Below are positions 6,680-28,881 of a stretch of 51,598 bases of DNA, piece after piece (within the stretch, counting starts at the first letter, position 1; each line of letters opens with the position of its first letter). The notes beneath the pieces were generated by a model. The model was not told the DNA's origin, ran no database searches, and saw nothing but the letters and a program-made list of their open reading frames with translations. The DNA is from Clostridiales bacterium (lineage in GTDB: Bacteria; Bacillota; Clostridia; Oscillospirales; UBA644), in contig JAEEJJ010000130.1 of assembly GCA_016281805.1 (NCBI GenBank), positions 1 through 51,598 of the forward strand, read 5' to 3'. The position numbers were made by a program, and so were the translations under genes.

Positions 6680-7720
6680 ATGGATTTAAAAGATTTTTAT
6701 TATGACCTTCCCACAGAGCTTATAGCGCAGCATCCTGCAGAAAAAAGAGATCTATCGAGACTGATGTTTCTTGATAAAAAGACCGGGCAGATACGGCACG
6801 GGACATTCCGGGATATAATTGATGAATTTGATAAAGGCGATTGCCTTATACTGAACGATTCAAGAGTCATTCCGGCAAGACTTTTTGCAGAAAGAGTTTC
6901 GGACAAAGCGAAGATCGAAGTTTTTCTTCTGAGACCGCTTGACAATTCAAACACATGGGAATGCCTTGTAAAGCCCGGCAAAAAAATGAAAACCGGAACA
7001 AAAATCGACGTAAAAGGAATTCCTGCAGAAGTAACCGAAGTATTTGAAAACGGCAACAGAGCCATCCGTTTTGAATTTGACGGTGATTTCAAAGACAAGC
7101 TTAACGAAATAGGTGAAATCCCGCTGCCCCCGTACATACATGAAAAACAGGACGATTACAGCAGATATCAGACTGTATACGCAAAATATGACGGTTCTGT
7201 TGCAGCACCTACCGCGGGACTTCATTTTACAGAGGAGCTGCTTGATGAACTGCGAAACAAAGGCGTTGAAATAGGTTTTGTTACTTTGCACGTAGGGTTG
7301 GGAACATTCAGACCCGTAAAGACCGAAATAATTGAAGAGCATAAAATGCATTCGGAGTTTTTTATACTTCCAGATAAGACGGCGGAAATAATCAACAGAT
7401 GCAAAAAGAACAAACACAGAGTAACGGCTGTTGGAACAACATGCACAAGAACACTTGAAACAGTTGGAACGAGGCTCGGAATAAACGAAGATAATTTCAA
7501 GCTTACTGAAATGTCAGGCGAAACAGATATTTTTATTTATCCGCCGTATGAGTTTAAAGTAATAGACAGATTGATCACAAATTTCCATCTTCCGGAAAGC
7601 ACGCTGATAATGCTTGTTTCAGCCCTTGCGGGAAGAGAAAACGTATTGAATGCCTACAAAGAAGCAGTGAAAGAAAAATACAGATTTTTTTCATTCGGCG
7701 ACGCTATGTTCATTGGATAG
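6680..7720 (+). CDS. queA: S-adenosylmethionine:tRNA ribosyltransferase-isomerase
   Basis: 346 aa. Contains FYYDLPTELIAQHP, LPPYI, AAPTAGLHFT and FFSFGDAMFI, which are QueA signatures. Confidence 0.95.
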   Translation: MDLKDFYYDLPTELIAQHPAEKRDLSRLMFLDKKTGQIRHGTFRDIIDEFDKGDCLILNDSRVIPARLFAERVSDKAKIEVFLLRPLDNSNTWECLVKPGKKMKTGTKIDVKGIPAEVTEVFENGNRAIRFEFDGDFKDKLNEIGEIPLPPYIHEKQDDYSRYQTVYAKYDGSVAAPTAGLHFTEELLDELRNKGVEIGFVTLHVGLGTFRPVKTEIIEEHKMHSEFFILPDKTAEIINRCKKNKHRVTAVGTTCTRTLETVGTRLGINEDNFKLTEMSGETDIFIYPPYEFKVIDRLITNFHLPESTLIMLVSALAGRENVLNAYKEAVKEKYRFFSFGDAMFIG

Positions 7721-7750
7721 CAGTTTTTGAAAACGATATACAAACATTAA

Positions 7751-7785
7751 AAAAGTCCTGAATCTATGCGGTTTCAGGACTTTTT
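7751..7785. terminator. bidirectional rho-independent terminator after queA
   Basis: Stem AAAAGTCCTGAA / TTCAGGACTTTT, with an A-run upstream and a T-run downstream. Confidence 0.85.
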
Positions 7786-7790
7786 CCTTT

Positions 7791-7945
7791 TCAATTCTCT
7801 TTGTAGATAAATTCGTGTTTTATGCCGTTTTTGAAGGTTATCGACATCACACGCCCATTTTTTATACAAAAGTTGTTACTTACCGTTTTTATAAAATCCT
7901 TCAAAATTCGCGGGTCAATTTCTTTAAGTAAAGATATTGTCTCAG
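7791..7945 (-). pseudogene. possible 3' stump of an unidentified minus-strand gene
   Basis: The minus frame reads ...SLLKEIDPRILKDFIKTVSNNFCIKNGRVMSITFKNGIKHEFIYKEN and stops just before the bidirectional terminator. The upstream part of the same track ORF is antisense to the next CDS and looks non-coding. Confidence 0.3.
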
Positions 7946-7968
7946 CTGTAGATAACGAAGGTGGAACG

Positions 7969-8451
7969 ATGTTCGGTCTGCCTTTCAGATTGAAACAGCC
8001 TACTTCCATGGCAGGTAAAATCGCTGAAGATGTGGCGAAGGGAGATTCAATAGAAGATGCATCAGGAGAAATAAGGGACGCCGTAAGGTACACGGCTATC
8101 TTTCCTGAGGAAAACTTCACTGACGGCTATTACAAAGTGAAGAAATCTCTGGAAAAGAAAGGCTATGAAGAGGTCCGATGCAAAAACTTTTACGAAATGT
8201 ACGAAGCGGGAGACCAATGCCAGAAGGCTGTTCAATGCGTATATAAGGATAAATCGGGATATGTGTTTGAGTTTCAGTTTCACACGGTAGACAGCGCAGG
8301 GGCAAAAGAGGTAAACCATCCCGTATATGAAGAGTTCAGAAAAGCCACAGTGCCGAAGGAAATAAAAAACAAATATTTCGGGAATATGAGGTACATCGGA
8401 ACTCATGTTCCTGTTCCACGCGGTGTCATGGGTATAAAGTCGCACGGATAA
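7969..8451 (+). CDS. RelA/SpoT-synthetase (RSH/SAS)-fold nucleotide pyrophosphokinase-like protein, short or 5'-truncated
   Basis: GAAGGTGG RBS before the ATG at 7969. The motifs RLKQPTSMAGK (R-x-K-x3-S-x3-K), RDAVRYT, FEFQFHT (E-x-Q-x2-T) and NHPVY occur in the order and spacing of small alarmone synthetases. Confidence 0.5.
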   Translation: MFGLPFRLKQPTSMAGKIAEDVAKGDSIEDASGEIRDAVRYTAIFPEENFTDGYYKVKKSLEKKGYEEVRCKNFYEMYEAGDQCQKAVQCVYKDKSGYVFEFQFHTVDSAGAKEVNHPVYEEFRKATVPKEIKNKYFGNMRYIGTHVPVPRGVMGIKSHG

Positions 8452-8463
8452 CACAAACGGGTC

Positions 8464-8492
8464 TTGAAATATCATCTTAAATGTGATATAAT
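8464..8492 (+). promoter_or_regulatory. promoter (TTGAAA-17-TATAAT)
   Basis: Hexamers at 8464-8469 and 8487-8492. The RBS AGGGAGG and the ATG at 8516 follow. Confidence 0.6.
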
Positions 8493-8515
8493 AAGAATAA
8501 AGGGAGGCATAAACA

Positions 8516-8755
8516 ATGGCACGGACGCGATATTATTTACATGAACGAGAATCGTACCCTGTTAGACTTGTAAAGCTGGAATTTGACGACGAAGGCTTTC
8601 CAGAAGGGTCAGGATGGAAAGACGGCAAATGGGAGCCTATCAGCAACCGCTTGGAGTTGAGTCTTCTTAACGACCTCACACCTTATCATGACATTACCGA
8701 AGAAGAAGCCAAGGCGTACCTGAAATCACAGGAAAAGGCTTCAAAGCAGGAATAA
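8516..8755 (+). CDS. hypothetical 79-aa acidic protein (candidate immunity/antitoxin)
   Basis: It has a strong RBS and its own promoter. I recognise no motif in it. It lies between the synthetase-like and hydrolase-like genes. Confidence 0.55.
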   Translation: MARTRYYLHERESYPVRLVKLEFDDEGFPEGSGWKDGKWEPISNRLELSLLNDLTPYHDITEEEAKAYLKSQEKASKQE

Positions 8756-8788
8756 AATACAGTTTAGAAATTTGTAACCGTTTAGCTA

Positions 8789-8816
8789 TTGATTGGTAAC
8801 CTTTATCGCGTATAAT
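8789..8816 (+). promoter_or_regulatory. promoter (TTGATT-16-TATAAT)
   Basis: Hexamers at 8789-8794 and 8811-8816. The context TATAATAAATACG is shared with the promoter at 11513. Confidence 0.55.
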
Positions 8817-8846
8817 AAATACGTAAGATGGGAGGGATGCTTTTTG

Positions 8847-9257
8847 ATGTTAAACAAAGCACTCCTGATGGCGTATGAAGCGCACAAAAATCAGGTTGAC
8901 AAAGGCGGAGAGCCGTATTATCTGCATTCGATATATGTTGCTCTGACAGTGCAGGGAGAAACCGAGAAAATCGTTGCTCTGTTGCATGACATTGTGGAAG
9001 ATACAGACGTTACGCTTGGAGACCTTCGGCGTGAAGGATTCTCAGAACAGGTGATTGAAGCTGTTGACGCAATAACTCACCGCGGTGAGGATTACGATGA
9101 ATATATAAAGAAGGTCAAGAGCAATCCGACCGCAACAAAGGTGAAAATCGCTGATATTCACCACAACATGGACATCACGCGGCTGAAAGAGGTTACAGAG
9201 AAAGATAAAGCACGTATTGAGAAATACAAAAGGGCTCTGAAATATTTACAGGAATAA
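8847..9257 (+). CDS. single-domain HD hydrolase of the RelA/SpoT hydrolase type (small alarmone hydrolase-like)
   Basis: GGAGG RBS, then the ATG at 8847. Contains AYEAHKNQVDKGGEPYYLH, ALLHDIVEDT, AITH and VKIADIHHNMD, the HD_4/SAH pattern. About 136 aa. Confidence 0.8.
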   Translation: MLNKALLMAYEAHKNQVDKGGEPYYLHSIYVALTVQGETEKIVALLHDIVEDTDVTLGDLRREGFSEQVIEAVDAITHRGEDYDEYIKKVKSNPTATKVKIADIHHNMDITRLKEVTEKDKARIEKYKRALKYLQE

Positions 9258-9258
9258 T

Positions 9259-9288
9259 CAGGCGGCTGAAAAGCCAGCCTGTTTTTTT
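9259..9288 (+). terminator. rho-independent terminator
   Basis: Stem CAGGCGGCT / AGCCAGCCTG with one bulge and a GAAA loop, followed by TTTTTTT. Confidence 0.7.
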
Positions 9289-9340
9289 ATATCAAGATAC
9301 ACCATAAAATATTCATTGCTCTTTATAGGAAAGGGCTACA

Positions 9341-9832
9341 ATGGATATTATATACAAACCGATATTTGAGCTTCATGCTTATGAAAACAATCCGAGAATA
9401 AATGATGACGCGGTAGAACCCGTTGCAAAAAGCATAAAAGAATTTGGGTTCAAAGTCCCGATTCTCATTGATAAGGACAACGTAATAATTGCGGGACATA
9501 CTCGCCTTAAAGCTGCACAAGCTCTTGGGATGAAGGAAGTCCCGTGCATACTTTGTGATGACCTTACGCCCGAACAGGTAAAAGCGTTTCGCCTTGCTGA
9601 TAACAAAGTAGCTGAGTTCGCTGACTGGGATATTCCCCTATTAGAGCTTGAGGTCAAAGAAGTTGAGCTTGTCATTAAAGAAGCAGGACTGGAAGATTTA
9701 GTCAACAATCTCCCTCCTATTGATATTGACGGTTATCTGGAACGCATGGATAATAAGCAGGATGAAGAACCTAAACCCAAACAGGCACGATGCCCGCACT
9801 GTGGCGAATGGGTAGACATTGACGAGATATAA
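9341..9832 (+). CDS. ParB/Srx N-terminal-domain protein with C-terminal CxxC tail (paralog 1)
   Basis: Contains NPRIND, SIKEFGFKVPILIDKDNVIIAGHTRLKAAQALGMKEVPC and LTPEQVKAFRLADN, the ParB-like nuclease domain seen at the N-terminus of phage methylases. It ends with CPHCGEWVDIDE. Confidence 0.8.
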   Translation: MDIIYKPIFELHAYENNPRINDDAVEPVAKSIKEFGFKVPILIDKDNVIIAGHTRLKAAQALGMKEVPCILCDDLTPEQVKAFRLADNKVAEFADWDIPLLELEVKEVELVIKEAGLEDLVNNLPPIDIDGYLERMDNKQDEEPKPKQARCPHCGEWVDIDEI

Positions 9833-9846
9833 CAGGAGGAAACACG

Positions 9847-10326
9847 ATGGAGATAGTATACAAGCCCACGGACTCTCTTGTTATGTATGACAAGAACCCA
9901 AGAATAAACGACAGAGCAATCGTTCCTGTTGCTAACAGCATAAAGGAGTTCGGATTCAAAGTCCCGATTCTGCTTGACAAGGATAATGTCATTATTGCAG
10001 GACACACAAGACTTAAAGCCGCAAAGAGTTTAGGTATGAAGGAAGTCCCCTGCATTATGTGTGAGGACTTAACTCCTGAGCAGGTAAAGGCGTTCAGGAT
10101 TATTGACAACAAGACGGCAGAGATTTCAAACTGGAACTTGGAAAAGCTGAACGAGGAGCTGGGCGATATTCATATTGACATGGAAGAGTTCGGCTTCTAT
10201 GATATTCCCGTAGTAGATGAGCTCGGCGAGTATCTGAAAGACCATGAAGAAAAACCTCCGAAAGAAAAAGAGCCGCTGAGAATACAATGCCCGTATTGCG
10301 GAGAGTGGTTTGATGTCGATGAATAA
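9847..10326 (+). CDS. ParB/Srx N-terminal-domain protein with C-terminal CxxC tail (paralog 2)
   Basis: Same architecture as the upstream gene (IIAGHTRLKAAKSLGMKEVPC; CPYCGEWFDVDE). The intergenic gap is 14 nt. Confidence 0.8.
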   Translation: MEIVYKPTDSLVMYDKNPRINDRAIVPVANSIKEFGFKVPILLDKDNVIIAGHTRLKAAKSLGMKEVPCIMCEDLTPEQVKAFRIIDNKTAEISNWNLEKLNEELGDIHIDMEEFGFYDIPVVDELGEYLKDHEEKPPKEKEPLRIQCPYCGEWFDVDE

Positions 10327-11101
10327 AGCGAAGTACACACAATCCGAAAGACGCAGAGCTATGATAGCGAGGGTCTATCACAAGGATGCGGATGAAGACG
10401 GATGGAAGACACTTCACGGCGAGCACGTGCATTTCAAGGATGGAGAGATAGACAAAGGAAACCCTCACCTTGTAAATGCTCTGAAAGGTAAAGCAGGAAA
10501 AGAAGCCAAAGGCGAAGAAAAGGGCTTGACCAAAAGCGGGAAAAGTGGTATAATAGAAAAAAGCAGACCTGCACCGAAGTTTACCGTCCCCTCCCCTAAA
10601 AGTTTTCAAAAGGCACTGAGCGCAGCAAAGGCAACCTGCCCGCCCGAAAAAGCGTGGCGCGTTGATTCGACATACAGTGCTGAGGATTATTCGGAATGCA
10701 AACTGTTCTCAACCGAAAAGGGCAGCACCGTTGCTATAAAGCCTGACGGTGATATTATCAGTGTATGCAAATGCGAGGGAGATGCTTTACGCGGACGCGA
10801 TTTAATTAAATACGCAGTAGAGAATGGCGGAACAAAGCTCGATAGTTTCAGCGGCAACCATAAGTTCTACGTACATAATGGGTTCGAGCCTGTAAGCTGG
10901 TGCGAGTTTGATGAAAAATACGCCCCTGATGGATGGGACAAGAATCGTGACGAATTGGAACCAGTAATTTTTTATAAATATACTGGAAAGACGAGTCAGT
11001 ATGGGACGTTAAATGATTTTCTGTCAAGTGTTCCTGCCAGCAAGGACTATGACACGGCAAAAGAAATAAGGAATAAAGAATTAGAAAAAAAGGAAAAGTG
11101 A
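10313..11101 (+). CDS. composite protein: N-terminal WKTLHGEHVHF module, Lys/Gly-rich linker, C-terminal GNAT-like domain
   Basis: GGAGAG RBS, then the ATG at 10313, overlapping the ParB-2 stop. The C-terminus (VAIKPDGDIISVCKCEGDALRGRDLIKYAVENGGTKLDSFSGNHKFYVHNGFEPVS) has the beta4-alpha3 and GF pattern of GNAT acetyltransferases. Confidence 0.45.
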   Translation: MSMNKAKYTQSERRRAMIARVYHKDADEDGWKTLHGEHVHFKDGEIDKGNPHLVNALKGKAGKEAKGEEKGLTKSGKSGIIEKSRPAPKFTVPSPKSFQKALSAAKATCPPEKAWRVDSTYSAEDYSECKLFSTEKGSTVAIKPDGDIISVCKCEGDALRGRDLIKYAVENGGTKLDSFSGNHKFYVHNGFEPVSWCEFDEKYAPDGWDKNRDELEPVIFYKYTGKTSQYGTLNDFLSSVPASKDYDTAKEIRNKELEKKEK

Positions 11102-11105
11102 TACA

Positions 11106-11345
11106 ATGAAAACTCCCACATATGAAGAGTTCGAGAAGGCTGTTACGTATTACTTCAAGGATGGATGGAAGACCTTGAGCGATGAGCAGGTAATGGAATA
11201 TATAAAAAGCGAAGAAGCGCAAGAAGCAATAAGAGAAAAATACGCTGACGATGTTTCTGCTTACGAGAGCGGAAAGATAACACGCAGACAGTTTATGGTC
11301 GGCGGGGCTTCTGCTGTTGGCAACTGTCTGGTATATATGTACTAA
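11106..11345 (+). CDS. hypothetical 79-aa protein
   Basis: It starts 4 nt after the preceding stop, is the last gene before a terminator, and has no recognisable motif. Confidence 0.5.
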   Translation: MKTPTYEEFEKAVTYYFKDGWKTLSDEQVMEYIKSEEAQEAIREKYADDVSAYESGKITRRQFMVGGASAVGNCLVYMY

Positions 11346-11414
11346 CCGTAAAGCAAAGGGCAAGACCAGCTAAATAATTAAATATCTCATCTGCCATGTG
11401 TAGAAGGAGTTTTC

Positions 11415-11451
11415 AAAGACGTTTTGTTTAGGCAAAGCGTCTTTTGTTTTT
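11415..11451 (+). terminator. rho-independent terminator
   Basis: Stem AAAGACG...CGTCTTT with extra inner pairs, followed by TGTTTTT. Confidence 0.7.
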
Positions 11452-11512
11452 ATGCAAAAAAGCAGTCCGCAACAACCTGCTTAAAAATAAACTAAAAATT
11501 CAAGAAGAGGGC

Positions 11513-11541
11513 TTGACCGAACGCGAAAAATCGGATATAAT
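11513..11541 (+). promoter_or_regulatory. promoter (TTGACC-17-TATAAT)
   Basis: Hexamers at 11513-11518 and 11536-11541, about 17 nt upstream of the ATG at 11558. Confidence 0.6.
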
Positions 11542-11557
11542 AAATACGAGCAGGAAG

Positions 11558-12127
11558 ATGAAGGTCTCTGCAACTGGCTCGAACAAATTCAAGGTCGGTT
11601 TTACAGAAAAAAATCTCGACCGCCACTGGGGAGGGTCGAGCGACCCCAGCGATGAGTACCCTGGCTGGACCAAAGAACAATATGCACAAAGAGCTTTGGA
11701 GCTTGTTCAGAGCGCAACAAGTGAAAATGTTTTAGGTTACAAAACATCCAGCGGTGCGATAGTAAGGTATGATAAAGCAACTAACGACTTTGTTAAGGGC
11801 TATCCCGAAACAGGTGTAGTGTCAATGTACAAGCCAGAAGACGGTGAGGAATACTTCTTGCGCAGGTTAAAAAAAGAGAGTGGCATCACAACCGACAGTA
11901 AGGAGGAAAATATGCCCGAAGGTAAGCACTTATGTCCCGTATGTGGTAAGTATGAGTTCCCAGAAGAGGACAGCCTCGATGTATGTGAGGTCTGTGGCTG
12001 GGAGGATGATGTGATTCAGGAAGACGACCCTGATTACAGAGGCGGTGCAAATAAGATGAGCCTCAACGAAGCAAAGGCAGCGTGGGAGAAATCAGGCGGA
12101 ACAATACCGAAGCCTTATGGCTTGTAA
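11558..12127 (+). CDS. toxin-like alpha/beta domain (BECR-RNase-like?) fused to a CPCC-family cysteine-rich zinc-ribbon domain
   Basis: The track start at 11444 lies inside the terminator, so I use the ATG at 11558, downstream of the promoter. The C-terminus (CPVCGKYEFPEEDSLDVCEVCGWEDDVIQEDDPDYRGGANKMSLNEAKAAW) is the Cys_rich_CPCC pattern. The N-terminal part (RHWGG...EYPGWTKEQY...VRYDKATNDFV...SMYKPEDGEEYF) resembles toxin tips of phage or polymorphic toxins. Confidence 0.6.
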   Translation: MKVSATGSNKFKVGFTEKNLDRHWGGSSDPSDEYPGWTKEQYAQRALELVQSATSENVLGYKTSSGAIVRYDKATNDFVKGYPETGVVSMYKPEDGEEYFLRRLKKESGITTDSKEENMPEGKHLCPVCGKYEFPEEDSLDVCEVCGWEDDVIQEDDPDYRGGANKMSLNEAKAAWEKSGGTIPKPYGL

Positions 12128-12280
12128 TTTGCCGAATTTGCGCAGGTTCATCCGAGCAGAGGAATTATACTACTCTGTATAGAACCCGTCCTGCTACATA
12201 GTTATTTTAAGCTATTATTGACGATAAAGGTGAGTGACGGAAACGCCACTTGCCTTTATTGCGTTATAAGGAGAAATCGA

Positions 12281-12492
12281 GTGCATAAAAGAAAGGCTAT
12301 TTCGTAAACCACCCTATCGTAACATCGGTCGGAATTTTTGAGTACAAGAACCCTGACGGAAGTACAAGAAGGGAGTGACGACTCCCCGAAGATGTCTTTG
12401 ATGCCGAGAGCCTCGCGTCATATAAAGGAAAGCCCATTATCATGACTCACGATGCTGGCTATGTTGATAAAAACAACAGTTCTTTGTGTTGA
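12281..12492 (+). pseudogene. DUF2213-like phage head scaffold/protease gene fragment (frameshift, in-frame TGA, 3' truncation)
   Basis: AAGGAG plus the GTG at 12281 gives MHKRK, followed by an apparent 1-nt frameshift in an A-run. The shifted frame reads KGYFVNHPIVTSVGIFEYKNPDGSTRRE*RLPEDVFDAESLASYKGKPIIMTHDAGYVDKNN, with the TGA at 12376-12378. Confidence 0.6.
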
Positions 12493-12583
12493 TGATATGG
12501 CGACAATCCACGTCGCATGGGACAACGGCTCTGGGCTTGGAGTGGCGTACGGGGAAGATTATTGCAGAAGAATCGAACAGTAA
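12488..12583 (+). pseudogene. C-terminal fragment of a DUF4314-like domain
   Basis: VDDMATIHVAWDNGSGLGVAYGEDYCRRIEQ* matches the DUF4314 core (IHV-WDNGS-L). It has no upstream domain or start signal and directly abuts the DUF2213-like fragment. Confidence 0.5.
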
Positions 12584-12595
12584 GCCGCAAAGGGA

Positions 12596-12624
12596 TTGAC
12601 AATTATCCGTGACTGTGATAATAT
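12596..12624 (+). promoter_or_regulatory. promoter reading into tgt (TTGACA, then TGTGATAAT/TAATAT)
   Basis: TTGACA at 12596-12601 and a -10 region at 12614-12624. Its GGG-TTGAC context resembles the other island promoters. Confidence 0.5.
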
Positions 12625-12726
12625 ATGTATACGATGCAAAAACGTTGTCTTTACGCGATTGAGAACCACATGATTCAGGGATAGAAAACTCATATCCCGT
12701 GAACATATGGGACGCAATGTTTATAG

Positions 12727-13884
<1,158 letters not shown>

Positions 13885-26463: not shown

Positions 26464-27630
26464 TTATGATTTATTTCGCGGAGTATATCCGAGCTTGATA
26501 AAATTAGTATCTTCCGAAAGAGTTTTTGCGTTGTATATAACAATAACAACATCCGGATCCAGCGAAGAAACATATTCGGTAAGATTTTCGTTTATGTAGC
26601 GAGGGTCTATCATATGGATCGTGCTGAAATGCGCAATAAAAAACGGCAGCATGCAATGTGTATATGAATCTTTAATAAAAACGGCTGTTTTGGGTGTGCC
26701 GGAGTTTGTTGTAACAGTAAGATGCGCCGGATTGCCTGACATAAAATAAGAATACTTATCTTTTTTGGAGAGATAGCTTTCATCATATAACGATGATTTG
26801 TTTTCTCCGTCCGATACAACGGAATAAGAGGTCTGATCTTTCAGATCGAAGCGAGTGATCGTATCCGGAGCGACCGGAAAATTGCCTTTTGAAAACAATG
26901 TTCCGTAAAAACTGCTGATTATTGGCGTGATATCGTAATCTTCGATATTATTTGGAGTGATGCCGATAGAGCTGCATATCGTCTGATAAGCGTAAAATGC
27001 ACCGAGAGTTGTCCAGTGATGGTCTGTGCGGTAATAAATGTATTCATCCTTTTTCGCTTCAAGCGTCGGAATGAGATCGATCGTTGTGACAGAGGAAGGA
27101 AGTGAAGAATAAAAGCGGTCGATATATGCGCGCTGATTTGAAAGCGTTTTGCCGTTATACTCTTTTTCAGCTGGAGCAAAGGCAGGAATTTTGCTGCCGT
27201 AAACAGCTATGGAATTAGGAACAACAGCGAAATAAACCGGGACATCAAGACGTTGTGAAAACAAAGTAAGAGCGTTTATCTGTTTATCCATTCGGTCAGT
27301 ATCGATATTTTCAAACTTTTCAAAAAGATAGCCGTCTTTACCGATATAAACGCCGTTAATATCCCGTTTGCAAAGAGCATACATTGAAACGGCAGTATTG
27401 GAGCGGACAAAAAAATCACGGAAAGGAAACTGATCTGTAATATAGCTTTCAAAGCCTGACTCAAACGAGCCGTCCGTAACTGAAGTTAATGATATTTTCG
27501 GAGCTTTTGAAAGGACCCTGTTTTCACTTTCCGAAAAATCGGTATCTGGCAAAGCAATAAAAAGAATCCCGAAGCCGAAAATAAAAATAATAAAGAGGAC
27601 AGAAAGAACAATATCTGATTTTTTCAACAT
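26464..27630 (-). CDS. DHHW-family membrane-anchored protein
   Basis: Motif YYRTDHHWT and an N-terminal TM segment. I chose the ATG at 27630 because the longer track ORF runs through the divergent promoter region. Confidence 0.7.
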   Translation of the reverse strand: MLKKSDIVLSVLFIIFIFGFGILFIALPDTDFSESENRVLSKAPKISLTSVTDGSFESGFESYITDQFPFRDFFVRSNTAVSMYALCKRDINGVYIGKDGYLFEKFENIDTDRMDKQINALTLFSQRLDVPVYFAVVPNSIAVYGSKIPAFAPAEKEYNGKTLSNQRAYIDRFYSSLPSSVTTIDLIPTLEAKKDEYIYYRTDHHWTTLGAFYAYQTICSSIGITPNNIEDYDITPIISSFYGTLFSKGNFPVAPDTITRFDLKDQTSYSVVSDGENKSSLYDESYLSKKDKYSYFMSGNPAHLTVTTNSGTPKTAVFIKDSYTHCMLPFFIAHFSTIHMIDPRYINENLTEYVSSLDPDVVIVIYNAKTLSEDTNFIKLGYTPRNKS

Positions 27631-27686
27631 TTGAACACCGCCTGATATAAATAAGAAAAGCTGCCTGAGAAACGAATTAAAGCAAC

Positions 27687-27715
27687 TTGACATTATCGTT
27701 AAAATTTGATATAAT
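27687..27715 (+). promoter_or_regulatory. promoter (TTGACA-17-TATAAT)
   Basis: Perfect hexamers at 27687-27692 and 27710-27715. Confidence 0.65.
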
Positions 27716-27753
27716 AGCCATATTGAAAAATACAGGCAAAAGGAAGTTTTTTT

Positions 27754-28881
27754 TTGAATACAAGAACACGCATTCCTCCGCGAGGGCAGAGACAGCAACA
27801 GCTTGAACGTCAAAGAAGACTATACGAACAGAGGAAAAAAGAGATACGAAGGCGAAAAAGGAATCTTCTGATCAAGCGAATCTCATTTTTTGCAGTTCTT
27901 GCCGTTATTGCCGTTTTGATCGTATGGATGATAATGAGCTTTATTGATATCAACTCAAAAAATCATTCGGAAAGCAGCGGAAAAAGCATAACCGACAACA
28001 ATCCCGAAGGAAACGATACTGAAGACGTACCGGACGACGGTCACAGCAGCGAATTTGATCTGTCCGCGCTGATAGACCCGTCAACATTGAATCCAAACGA
28101 TAAAATAGATCTGTATTACAAAATTGACCAGGTTTTACCTACGGTTTATGAATCTGAAAAAGCACATTACAAAACGTTTGCACAGGATAACCCGATCCTT
28201 GGTTCAAACAAGGAAACGCGGGTTATAGTTATCGACGCAGGACATCAGGACGAAACGCGTAAATCGGACGTATGGCTGTCACCGTATATAGATCCATCGA
28301 AAACCACATCGTGGGTGCATAATTCTCTGCTTACGATCGGAACAGAAGGGACCAAAACCAAAATTCCGGAATATGAAACGACACATGAGATCGCCGGCAA
28401 ATTAAAATCCGCGCTTGAGGCTTACGGATACAAGGTTCTTTTAAGCCATCCTGATATAAAAGAAAAACTCTCCGGAGCAGAACGGGCTGCCGTTGCGAAC
28501 AGAAACAATGCTGATCTGATGATCTCGCTGCATTGTAATTCATATGATAAAGATCCGAAACAGAGCGGCGCACTCGTACTTGTTCCGAAGATATGGGCAG
28601 GATATCCAAGCGAACGGCTCGAATATTTATCAAAGCACGCGGCAACCGTTATTTTAGAAGAATATGCAAAAGCAACAGGGCTGAAAAACAGAGGTCTTAA
28701 CCCGATAGATAAGACATCGATGTTTGCGTTCTGCAAAGTTCCGATACTTCTTCTTGAAATGGGATTTTCATCATGTCCGTCTGACGATAAAGCGATGAAT
28801 GACCCGGAATTTCAGAAAAAAATCGTGGAAGGAATAGTAAACGGAATAAATAAATACTTTTCGCTTATTGAGATTTCATAA
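27754..28881 (+). CDS. membrane-anchored N-acetylmuramoyl-L-alanine amidase (Amidase_3 type)
   Basis: TTG start after AGGAAG. Arg/Lys-rich N-terminus plus a TM segment. Contains VIVIDAGHQ, ADLMISLHCNS and LLLEMGF. Confidence 0.8.
   Translation: MNTRTRIPPRGQRQQQLERQRRLYEQRKKEIRRRKRNLLIKRISFFAVLAVIAVLIVWMIMSFIDINSKNHSESSGKSITDNNPEGNDTEDVPDDGHSSEFDLSALIDPSTLNPNDKIDLYYKIDQVLPTVYESEKAHYKTFAQDNPILGSNKETRVIVIDAGHQDETRKSDVWLSPYIDPSKTTSWVHNSLLTIGTEGTKTKIPEYETTHEIAGKLKSALEAYGYKVLLSHPDIKEKLSGAERAAVANRNNADLMISLHCNSYDKDPKQSGALVLVPKIWAGYPSERLEYLSKHAATVILEEYAKATGLKNRGLNPIDKTSMFAFCKVPILLLEMGFSSCPSDDKAMNDPEFQKKIVEGIVNGINKYFSLIEIS

What the first reader, a model, noticed from the sequence alone, without database searches (positions are those of the whole stretch)
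10511..11557. A ~50-nt segment recurs in frame in two different genes and also reads as a near-perfect promoter
The two copies are:
- 10511-10570: GAAGAAAAGGGCTTGACCAAAAGCGGGAAAAGTGGTATAATAGAAAAAAGCAG
- 11498-11557: CAAGAAGAGGGCTTGACCGAACGCGAAAAATCGGATATAATAAATACGAGCAG

They match at roughly three of every four positions. Each contains TTGACC, a 17-nt spacer and TATAAT.

The first copy lies inside the linker of the GNAT-like gene (peptide EEKGLTKSGKSGIIEKSR). The second lies just upstream of the toxin-like/CPCC gene. There the same reading frame is also open (QEEGLTEREKSDIINTSR), even though it crosses a terminator.

A conserved junction sequence placed immediately 5' of different toxin-like domains is what allows cassette swapping in polymorphic-toxin loci. 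Alternatively, a portable promoter has been absorbed into a coding region. Either way, the dual reading (coding linker and promoter) is unusual.
Basis: seen in the sequence. Interest (0 to 1): 0.6.

Follow-up and report, generated by a model that had tools for sequence, protein, structure and literature searches.

The report
Promoter embedded in toxin-gene linker
A 52-base stretch that occurs twice in a small island of phage-derived toxin genes is a near-perfect promoter that one gene also reads as a floppy protein linker. Relatives keep the promoter letters even where the encoded peptide changes, so each toxin/antidote cassette appears to carry its own on-switch inside coding sequence.

Summary
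Segments 10515-10566 and 11502-11553 are 39/52 identical, and both read TTGACC-17-TATAAT. There are only two copies in the 2.2-Mb assembly.

Copy 1 lies in frame in a predicted disordered linker of gene 1 (10319-11101), which has a GNAT-fold C-terminal domain. Copy 2 lies behind a terminator, 16 nt before the ATG of gene 2 (11558-12127), which is a CdiA-CT/PT-VENN-like domain fused to CPCC.

The main new result comes from relatives found by protein homology that have an x-[G/D/T]-I-[I/M] linker:
- 12 of 13 spell TATAAT, and 10 of 13 have a promoter matching at least 11 of 12 consensus positions, mostly with the extended TGn.
- The linker sits in front of unrelated toxin domains and behind different N-terminal modules (a short N-terminal module beside a portal gene, or MuF/minor-capsid domains).
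- The -35 box is kept in two reading frames (L-T versus V/I-D-K/N).
- Against the ortholog L002, third-codon-position identity is 0.9 over the promoter versus 0.42 gene-wide.
- A conserved GDII peptide inside the toxin domain does not show this pattern.

The DNA, as a promoter, is therefore under selection. I infer that it transcribes the toxin C-terminal region plus the immunity gene on its own, as the internal promoters of Salmonella rhs genes do.

I rate it a new variant of a known kind, interest about 0.6.

The parts
10515..10566 (+). Copy 1 (W1) of the 52-nt promoter/linker module. -35 TTGACC at 10526-10531, 17-nt spacer, extended TG at 10546-10547, -10 TATAAT at 10549-10554. Read in frame as EEKGLTKSGKSGIIEKSR.
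   Evidence: The linker is predicted disordered (pLDDT below 50 for residues 62-77). Third-codon-position identity to the ortholog L002 is 0.9 here versus 0.42 gene-wide, and the longest exact match between the two genes (20 nt) is GCGAAGAAAAGGGCTTGACC.
11502..11553 (+). Copy 2 (W2) of the module. -35 TTGACC at 11513-11518, -10 TATAAT at 11536-11541, no TG. It lies between a terminator and the ATG of gene 2. The frame is still open (QEEGLTEREKSDIINTSR) and continuous with gene 2.
   Evidence: Homologs of gene 2 carry the same linker as coding sequence upstream of the same domain boundary.
10319..11101 (+). Gene 1. It has a short N-terminal module (WxTxxGxH motif), a disordered linker that contains W1, and a conserved C-terminal domain of about 170 aa with a GNAT fold (candidate toxin/effector).
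   Evidence: 229 homologs; alignment; AlphaFold model with mean pLDDT 84.8; all top PDB fold matches are GNAT acetyltransferases, best E 1.3e-3, probability 1.0. No Pfam hit.
11106..11345 (+). 79-aa gene directly after gene 1; candidate cognate immunity protein.
   Evidence: A homologous small gene follows the toxin-1 homolog in L002, L192, L193, L194, L203 and L204. W1 is the only site matching at least 10/12 consensus positions between the gene-1 start and this gene.
11415..11455 (+). Intrinsic terminator that closes the gene 1 + 79-aa unit and separates it from W2.
   Evidence: 13-bp stem followed by a T-run.
11558..12127 (+). Gene 2. It is a CdiA-CT/PT-VENN-like toxin domain (residues 1-about 112) fused to a Cys_rich_CPCC domain that keeps its own Shine-Dalgarno sequence and ATG (about 11900-11914). 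The start ATG lies 16 nt after the -10 of W2.
   Evidence: Pfam CPCC E 3.8e-18. Residues 3-108 match the C-terminus of portal phrog_15528. A profile of the domain hits PDB 8ey4_A, a PT-VENN domain protein, at E 2.8e-6. CPCC is a separate downstream gene in L007 and L206.
7720..12750 (+). The host island between queA (6680-7720) and tgt (12751-13884). It holds a beheaded RelA/SpoT-like toxin stump (7969-8451), a 79-aa gene, an HD hydrolase (8793-9257), two ParB_N genes (9341-9832 and 9847-10326), gene 1 with its immunity candidate, and gene 2.
   Evidence: The island was not found in the 40 relatives searched, apart from the HD gene.

Best explanation
The 52-nt segment is a sigma-A/sigma-70 type core promoter, spanning roughly -49 to +5, that belongs to mobile toxin-immunity cassettes of phage origin. 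These are effectors linked to portal, MuF or minor-capsid genes. In them the promoter is written into the coding sequence of the flexible linker just upstream of the variable C-terminal toxin domain.

Only two frames of TATAAT lack a stop codon. In this linker class it is read as x-I-I/M, giving the peptide ...L-T-x4-S-G-I-I-K...

In the window:
- Gene 1 carries the module in its fused form (W1).
- Gene 2 is an orphan. Its N-terminal part is gone, the old linker (W2) is still in frame with the ATG, and W2 is now the only promoter of the unit.

Inferred action: RNA polymerase starts near 10561 (W1) and near 11548 (W2).
- The W1 transcript runs through the untranslatable toxin-domain segment, which has no in-frame ATG, GTG or TTG preceded by a ribosome-binding site. 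It then covers the 79-aa immunity gene and ends at the terminator 11415-11455. Immunity would therefore be made independently of the upstream operon.
- The W2 transcript expresses the toxin-2/CPCC gene.

Carrying its own promoter would keep each cassette expressed after fusion, truncation or transfer.

Shown here: the sequence anatomy, the distribution among relatives, and selection at the DNA level. Inferred: promoter activity, the start sites, and the role in immunity expression.
For: (1) Both copies match 11 of 12 consensus positions with the optimal 17-nt spacer, and W1 has the extended TGn.

(2) I examined 13 linkers of the x-[G/D/T]-I-[I/M] type that were found by protein homology, not by DNA pattern: W1, L002, L003, L004, L006, L192, L193, L194, L203, L204, L205, L125 and L206.
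- 12 of 13 spell TATAAT.
- 10 of 13 have a -35 matching at least 5/6 at 16-17 nt, which makes at least 11/12 overall.
- 5 are perfect 12/12 with TGn.

(3) Background rate. In this genome, sites matching at least 11/12 inside same-strand open frames occur at 3.7e-5 per nt, or about 0.002 per 60-nt window. Finding 10 of 13 gives a binomial tail of about 1e-24 if the sites were independent.

(4) Internal control. The conserved toxin-domain peptide GDII[SA]V spells TATAAT in only 5 of 22 distinct contexts and has a -35 of at least 5/6 in 1 of 22. Fisher tests give p = 8e-5 and 1.5e-5.

(5) The -35 is kept in two reading frames with different peptides. These are GGC TTG ACC (G-L-T, spacer 17) versus GTT GAC AAA or ATT GAC AAT (V-D-K or I-D-N, spacer 16). 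W-T, F-T, L-Q and L-H also occur.

(6) W1 compared with the ortholog L002. Overall nucleotide identity is 64% and third-position identity 0.42. Over the promoter, third-position identity is 0.9 although amino-acid identity is only 0.5-0.7. The fully conserved peptide KPDGDIISVC has third-position identity of only 0.4. The longest exact match (20 nt) is the -35 plus its upstream flank.

(7) The peptide lies in a predicted disordered linker.

(8) The module precedes unrelated C-terminal domains and follows different N-terminal modules: portal-adjacent genes in L003 and L004, Phage_min_cap2 in L011, and VG15 in L057.

(9) In 9 of 11 distinct relatives' loci it is the only site matching at least 10/12 between the toxin-gene start and the conserved downstream small gene. 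L192 and L193 each have one additional 10/12 site, and L205 has none.

(10) The other promoters of the island share the GGGnTTGA...TGnTATAAT look.

Against: - There is no transcript or start-site evidence.
- The element is not universal. Most homologs of both toxins have other linkers without a promoter, so it is not required for this kind of toxin.
- L206 keeps the SGII peptide with non-promoter codons (GGC ATT ATT), and L205 has only a 3/6 -35. The peptide can therefore persist without the promoter.
- Upstream of the motif, some relatives share a helical N-terminal peptide, so there is some constraint at the peptide level too.
- The promoter sits about 550 nt upstream of the immunity gene, which is an odd position if immunity is the only purpose.
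- The relatives are not phylogenetically independent, so the p-values are overstated.
Confidence: 0.7

Rival explanations
1. The conserved object is the peptide (L-T-x4-S-G-I-I-K), for example a processing, packaging or portal-docking signal of capsid-delivered effectors. On this view the promoter look is a by-product of those codons.
For: - The peptide layout L-T-x4-[S/G]-G-I-I recurs in front of different toxin domains.
- L206 keeps SGII with codons that are not a -10.
- Related N-terminal helices precede the motif in L192, L203, L204 and L125.
Against: - Codon choice is fixed: xxT ATA AT in 12 of 13 linkers, against 5 of 22 at a truly conserved GDII peptide.
- The residues at the -35 vary (L-T, V-D-K, I-D-N, W-T, F-T) while TTGAC-like letters and the 16-17 nt spacing stay.
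- Third-position identity is 0.9 where amino-acid identity is only 0.5-0.7.
- The region is predicted disordered.
Confidence: 0.12
2. The segment is mainly a recombination junction. It would be a stretch of shared DNA that lets toxin-immunity cassettes be swapped behind different delivery modules, with the promoter match incidental.
For: - It lies exactly at the boundary between conserved N-terminal parts and variable toxin domains.
- It precedes at least four different C-terminal domains.
- Gene 2 and L206 look like orphans cut near this point.
Against: - The hexamers and their spacing are conserved while the 16-17 nt between them vary freely. That is the signature of a promoter, not of a homology patch.
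- 52 nt at 75% identity is too little for efficient homologous recombination now.
- No recombinant pairs with identical junctions and different cassettes were found, in the own genome or in the pattern scans.
Confidence: 0.1
3. The resemblance is chance between two independent strong promoters or promoter-like strings in A-rich DNA.
For: - 12 of the 39 shared letters are the hexamers themselves.
- Generic promoters with AARAGGGCTTGACC-N17-TATAATA exist in unrelated metagenome contigs.
Against: - 27 of the 40 positions outside the hexamers are also identical.
- No shuffle reproduced the pattern.
- The next-best genomic sites share only 27 of 39 letters.
- The ortholog L002 and more distant homologs carry the same module at the same place.
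Confidence: 0.03

Closest known systems
[quoted passage not shown] 2020, PMC7043789)
   Same: The promoter lies inside the coding sequence, in a conserved region shared by a full-length gene and an adjacent orphan, just upstream of the variable C-terminal toxin. It transcribes the toxin C-terminal region plus immunity independently of the delivery part.
   Different: The toxin system and host phylum differ. There are no Rhs repeats and no PxxxxDPxGL motif here; these are phage capsid-associated effectors of Firmicutes-like genomes. The promoter is a near-perfect consensus conserved across distant relatives and across reading frames. No internal translation start is visible in gene 1. No experimental start site is available here.
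Constitutive immunity-gene promoters located inside colicin structural genes
   Same: A promoter within the toxin ORF secures immunity expression when the main toxin promoter is silent.
   Different: The colicin promoters lie near the 3' end, close to the immunity gene. They are not part of a conserved inter-domain linker and are not known to be shared between unrelated toxin domains.
MuF polymorphic toxins of temperate phages (Jamet et al. 2017, PMC5576092) and Apk2-IapK-Aph1 modules (PMC12226406)
   Same: The architecture is the same: a head-morphogenesis N-terminal module, a variable C-terminal toxin, and downstream immunity genes. The island's first cassette (7969-9257) looks like a beheaded module of this kind. 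L011 and L057 are minor-capsid/MuF-like fusions that carry the linker promoter.
   Different: These papers do not mention promoters, linkers, transcription or orphans (zero occurrences of each term). In the window the N-terminal delivery domains are missing. The MuF toxins of Streptococcus phages phiS10 and SM1 have at best a 10/12 site.
Orphan CdiA-CT and Rhs-CT toxin/immunity modules (Poole et al. 2011, PMC3150448; listed, not read here)
   Same: Gene 2 is a toxin domain plus an immunity-like domain. It retains a short piece of the upstream conserved region and lies downstream of another cassette.
   Different: Classical orphans usually lack their own initiation signals. Here the retained piece is itself a consensus promoter, and an ATG lies 16 nt after the -10.

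Membership tests
Sigma-70/sigma-A dependent promoter | -35 hexamer close to TTGACA and -10 hexamer close to TATAAT, separated by 16-18 nt | tested here: met
   W1 and W2 both read TTGACC-17-TATAAT (11/12). Relatives reach 12/12.
Sigma-70/sigma-A dependent promoter | Extended -10 (TGn), common in Gram-positive promoters | tested here: met
   Present in W1 and in 10 of the 13 sites tabulated. Absent in W2, L193 and L205.
Sigma-70/sigma-A dependent promoter | A mapped transcription start 6-8 nt downstream of the -10, or reporter activity | not testable with these tools
No transcript data were available.
Sigma-70/sigma-A dependent promoter | Evolutionary constraint on the hexamers and their spacing rather than on the spacer sequence | tested here: met
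   The hexamers are conserved and the spacers vary. Third-position identity is 0.9 versus 0.42 gene-wide. The -35 is kept in two frames. The GDII control peptide is negative.
Polymorphic toxin system, phage capsid (MuF/portal) type | N-terminal head-morphogenesis or trafficking domain fused to the toxin | tested here: not met
   Gene 1 has only a short N-terminal module and gene 2 has none. MuF, minor-capsid or portal-adjacent forms exist in relatives L003, L004, L011, L057, P0082, P0098 and P0103. The window genes are therefore detached or orphan forms, not full members.
Polymorphic toxin system, phage capsid (MuF/portal) type | Variable C-terminal toxin domains behind a shared upstream region | tested here: met
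   The same linker precedes the GNAT-fold domain, the PT-VENN-like domain and two other C-terminal extensions.
Polymorphic toxin system, phage capsid (MuF/portal) type | Cognate immunity gene immediately downstream | tested here: inconclusive
   A conserved small gene follows toxin 1 in seven loci, and CPCC follows or is fused to toxin 2. Neither toxicity nor protection has been tested.
Rhs-type internal toxin-immunity expression (Starsta 2020) | Conserved intragenic region with a promoter, shared by a main and an orphan copy, upstream of the toxin C-terminal region | tested here: met
   W1 is in gene 1 and W2 precedes orphan-like gene 2.
Rhs-type internal toxin-immunity expression (Starsta 2020) | Rhs/YD-repeat shell and PxxxxDPxGL pre-toxin motif | tested here: not met
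   There are no Rhs or YD hits and no such motif in the genes of the island. It works like the Rhs case but is not a member.
GNAT acetyltransferase fold (gene 1 C-terminal domain) | Structural match to GNAT domains | tested here: met
   All top Foldseek PDB matches are GNATs, with best E 1.3e-3, probability 1.0 and TM (target) about 0.55, on a model with pLDDT above 90 over the domain.
GNAT acetyltransferase fold (gene 1 C-terminal domain) | Sequence-profile membership (Pfam, NCBIfam or PDB sequence search) | tested here: not met
   No hit in Pfam, NCBIfam or the PDB sequence search.

The most novel reading that the evidence does not exclude
Dual-coded consensus promoters may be a selected design feature of phage-borne polymorphic effector cassettes. 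On this reading each toxin-immunity cassette carries its own promoter, written into the pre-toxin linker in one of the only two stop-free frames of TATAAT. The two frames give ...G-I-I... in this class and ...Y-N... in a second class, seen in the MuF fusions L150, L174, L188 and L175. The cassette would then stay transcriptionally autonomous whether it is fused to a capsid protein, swapped, or left behind as an orphan. This would extend the internal expression of Rhs toxins to a second, unrelated delivery system. It would also explain why certain linker peptides recur.
Probability: 0.35. Interest if true: 0.75.

Novelty: new variant of a known kind. Interest (0 to 1): 0.6.

Why it matters
- Starsta et al. 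(PMC7043789) asked whether polymorphic toxins other than Rhs carry internal transcription starts. This locus and its relatives give a concrete, easily testable candidate in phage capsid-delivered effectors.
- If the promoter is active, it explains how prophage-borne or orphaned cassettes keep immunity, or a toxin-antitoxin-like pair, expressed when late phage genes are silent.
- It would show that a recurring "linker motif" can be the protein shadow of a DNA signal. This matters for domain annotation, for gene calling (the spurious 227-aa ORF over W2), and for synonymous recoding of such genes.

Tried and rejected
Searches for further copies:
- A conserved-letter scan of the own genome found no third copy.
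- The viral-contig scan with TTGAC-N11-13-AAAGTGGTATAATA returned mostly ordinary intergenic promoters. Only L011 and L057 were in-frame relatives. L071 and L076 (GroEL) look like chance in-ORF hits.
- The metagenome scan with AARAGGGCTTGACC-N17-TATAATA returned 15 hits. All were short-frame intergenic promoters unrelated to toxin genes.

Tests of generality:
- I tested whether every homolog has a promoter before the toxin domain, and rejected the idea. Most viral homologs of toxin 1, and about half of the toxin-2 loci, have only weak sites.
- The MuF toxins of Streptococcus phages phiS10 and SM1 have at best a 10/12 site.

Context checks with no result:
- The island was not found in 40 relatives, except for the HD gene.
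- Rfam gave no hit over 7700-12800.
- PADLOC placed nothing in a defence system; only the ParB_N gene (9341-9832) hit a type II methyltransferase model.
- The literature searches found no description of this promoter in the MuF, polyvalent-protein or polymorphic-toxin papers.

Full report
**Observation.**
- Reading the window, a gap-free alignment and the repeat finder (family D10) show that 10515-10566 and 11502-11553 share 39 of 52 positions.
- Both contain TTGACC, a 17-nt spacer and TATAAT. Copy 1 (W1) also has the extended -10 TG.
- A pattern built from the shared letters hit only these two places, and none of 100 shuffles matched.
- In the whole 2.2-Mb, 210-contig assembly there is no third copy. 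The next-best sites share 27 of 39 letters and are ordinary promoters.
- Homology ends about 12 nt upstream of the -35 and about 12 nt after the -10.
- W1 is in frame inside ORF 10319-11101.
- The frame over W2 is open from 11444 and is continuous with the ATG at 11558. It begins inside the T-run of a strong terminator at 11415-11455.

**Context.**
- The segment lies in a 5-kb island between queA (6680-7720) and tgt (12751-13884). The island was not found in the 40 relatives searched, apart from the HD gene.
- Its genes resemble detached C-terminal modules of phage head proteins.
  - 7969-8451 matches the C-terminus of a head-morphogenesis PHROG family and RelA/SpoT-like ends of large effectors. 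It is followed by a 79-aa gene and an HD hydrolase.
  - Two ParB_N genes follow.
  - Gene 2 residues 3-108 match the last 105 positions of a portal-protein PHROG family, followed by a CPCC domain.
- A profile of the gene-2 domain hits a solved PT-VENN (CdiA-type) toxin domain, 8ey4_A, at E 2.8e-6.
- Gene 1 has 229 homologs sharing a C-terminal domain of about 170 aa. An AlphaFold model (mean pLDDT 84.8) folds that domain as GNAT. All top PDB fold matches are GNATs, although sequence profiles do not reach them.
- The linker holding W1 is the only low-confidence stretch of the model (pLDDT below 50 for residues 62-77).
- A homologous small gene follows every toxin-1 homolog examined. CPCC follows toxin-2 homologs as a separate gene in L007, L206 and Streptococcus phages. 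Both are therefore candidate immunity partners.

**What the relatives show.**
- The closest ortholog (P0002, locus L002; 59% amino-acid identity) has the same gene order and the same module, GAAGAAAAGGGCTTGACC-17-TGATATAAT.
- Alignments of both toxin families showed that some homologs have linkers ending in SGII, GGII or SDII. I predicted that peptides such as V-D-K-x-x-K-x-G-I-I could spell TTGACA-16-TATAAT in a shifted frame, and then fetched their DNA.
- The prediction held:

| Locus | Peptide | Promoter reading |
|---|---|---|
| L003 | GVDKAGKSGII | TTGACA-16-TGGTATAAT |
| L004 | KVDKVSKGGII | TTGACA-16-TGGTATAAT |
| L006 | GIDNSEKSGII | TTGACA-16-TGGTATAAT |
| L192 | ALTRLVESGII | TTGACA-17-TGGTATAAT |
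| L204 | ALTTWQSNDII | TTGACA-17-TGATATAAT |
| L194 | RWTNGGSSGII | TGGACA-17-TGGTATAAT |
| L203 | FTGAENRDIM | TTTACA-17-TGATATAAT |
| L125 | LTFFGGGGII | TTGACT-17-TGGTATAAT |
| L193 | | TTGCAA-17-TATAAT |
| L205 | | TTGCAT-17-TATAAT |

- Only L206 has SGII in non-promoter codons.
- Two further in-frame cases were found by DNA pattern. L011 and L057 sit between a Phage_min_cap2 or VG15 (MuF-like) domain and a short C-terminal extension.
- L003 and L004 lie directly behind portal genes.

**Is the DNA or the peptide conserved?**
- Background rate. Sites matching at least 11/12 inside same-strand open frames of this genome occur at 3.7e-5 per nt. Ten of thirteen linkers carry one.
- Control. 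The strictly conserved toxin-domain peptide GDII[SA]V spells TATAAT in only 5 of 22 contexts and has a good -35 in 1 of 22. Fisher tests give p = 8e-5 and 1.5e-5.
- Frames. The -35 is maintained in two reading frames and under at least seven different dipeptides, while the spacer sequence drifts and its length stays at 16-17 nt.
- Synonymous sites. Between W1 and L002, third-position identity is 0.9 across the promoter against 0.42 for the gene, although amino-acid identity there is only 0.5-0.7. The invariant peptide KPDGDIISVC has third-position identity of 0.4. The longest exact match between the genes is the 20 nt ending in TTGACC.
- Conclusion. Selection acts on the nucleotides as a promoter. 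The peptide is largely its translation in a tolerant, disordered linker.
- Caveat. The relatives are not independent, so the p-values are upper bounds on significance.

**Likely mechanism (inferred).**
- W1 would start transcription near 10561. The toxin-domain segment has no in-frame start codon. The next translatable gene is the 79-aa immunity candidate, and the unit ends at the terminator 11415-11455.
- In 9 of 11 distinct relatives' loci the linker promoter is the only strong site between the toxin-gene start and that small gene. L192 and L193 each have one additional 10/12 site, and L205 has none.
- W2 would start near 11548 and drive gene 2, whose ATG lies 16 nt after the -10.
- The W2 reading frame is still open and in phase with gene 2, and homologs read this stretch as protein. 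W2 is therefore best seen as the retained linker of a beheaded gene. It resembles an orphan module that keeps the promoter and lives on it.
- This parallels the Salmonella rhs locus. There, promoters in a region shared by the main and orphan genes transcribe Rhs-CT plus immunity independently of the delivery part (PMC7043789).
- The other promoters of the island look alike (GGGnTTGA...TGnTATAAT), which fits cassette-wise transcription.

**Limits.**
- The module is confined to one linker class. Most homologs lack it, and the Streptococcus phage MuF toxins have at best 10/12 sites.
- Pattern scans of viral and metagenome collections mainly recover unrelated intergenic promoters.
- Cassette exchange through the junction was not shown.
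- No known RNA family matched and no island protein was placed in a known defence system.

**Novelty.**
- The MuF-toxin paper, the polyvalent-protein paper and the polymorphic-toxin survey do not describe promoters or linkers of this kind.
- Internal promoters in toxin genes are known for Rhs, and for colicins from my own knowledge.
- I therefore rate this a new variant of a known kind. It is a consensus promoter written into the pre-toxin linker of phage capsid-associated effectors, conserved across reading frames and toxin types.

Noticed in passing
L150, L174, L188, L175 (viral contigs); L207 = Streptococcus phage phiS10, locus position 2370: A second linker class in long MuF-type fusions reads TATAAT in the other stop-free frame (TAT AAT = Y-N). 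Examples are 'VANSPxxGYN' = TTGC[T/A]A-17-TATAAT, 'VAREPETQYN' = TTGCCA-17-TATAAT, and phiS10 'SLEDYIDLKYN' = TTGAAG-17-TATAAT. The third frame (xTA TAA) is a stop, so only the GII-type and YN-type peptides are possible.
   Followed up: partly
window 11645-11647: The toxin-2 domain of the window has Pro where at least 90% of aligned homologs have His (SDHS becomes SDPS). The toxin may be inactivated.
   Followed up: no
window 11900-11914: The CPCC part of gene 2 keeps its own AAGGAGG and ATG inside the fused ORF. In L007, L206 and the Streptococcus phages, CPCC is a separate gene after the toxin. The window form therefore looks like a toxin-immunity fusion made by loss of a stop codon.
   Followed up: partly
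L125:3470-3600: A 30-aa ORF (MEDIKLALRVLDDEFLTFFGGGGIIGESE*) carries the linker promoter, and the toxin-2 domain follows in another frame. This is either a frameshifted gene or a split form.
   Followed up: no
L192:1170-1300, L203:2370-2500, L204:2370-2500: These toxin-1 genes also have an intergenic GGGCATTGACA-17-TATAAT promoter followed by a GC-rich hairpin just before the start codon. They therefore have two consensus promoters within about 200 nt.
   Followed up: no
window 10175-10203: Another 11/12 promoter-like site (TTGACA-17-TATGAT) lies inside the second ParB_N gene, 116 nt before the ATG of gene 1. The ortholog L002 reads TGGACA-17-TATGAT there.
   Followed up: partly
homologs of gene 1 and window 10400-10440: The variable N-terminal regions are built from recurring short motifs: WxTxxGxHxxI, HPRDxxGxF, GSGNxGHxGRPG and YDKSTGxxG. 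They may be capsid-targeting or processing signals. Their function is unknown.
   Followed up: no
window 10365-10396 and 26597-26628: A 32-nt direct match at 81% identity between the 5' part of gene 1 and a distant site that is antisense to ORF 26464-27813. Probably chance.
   Followed up: no
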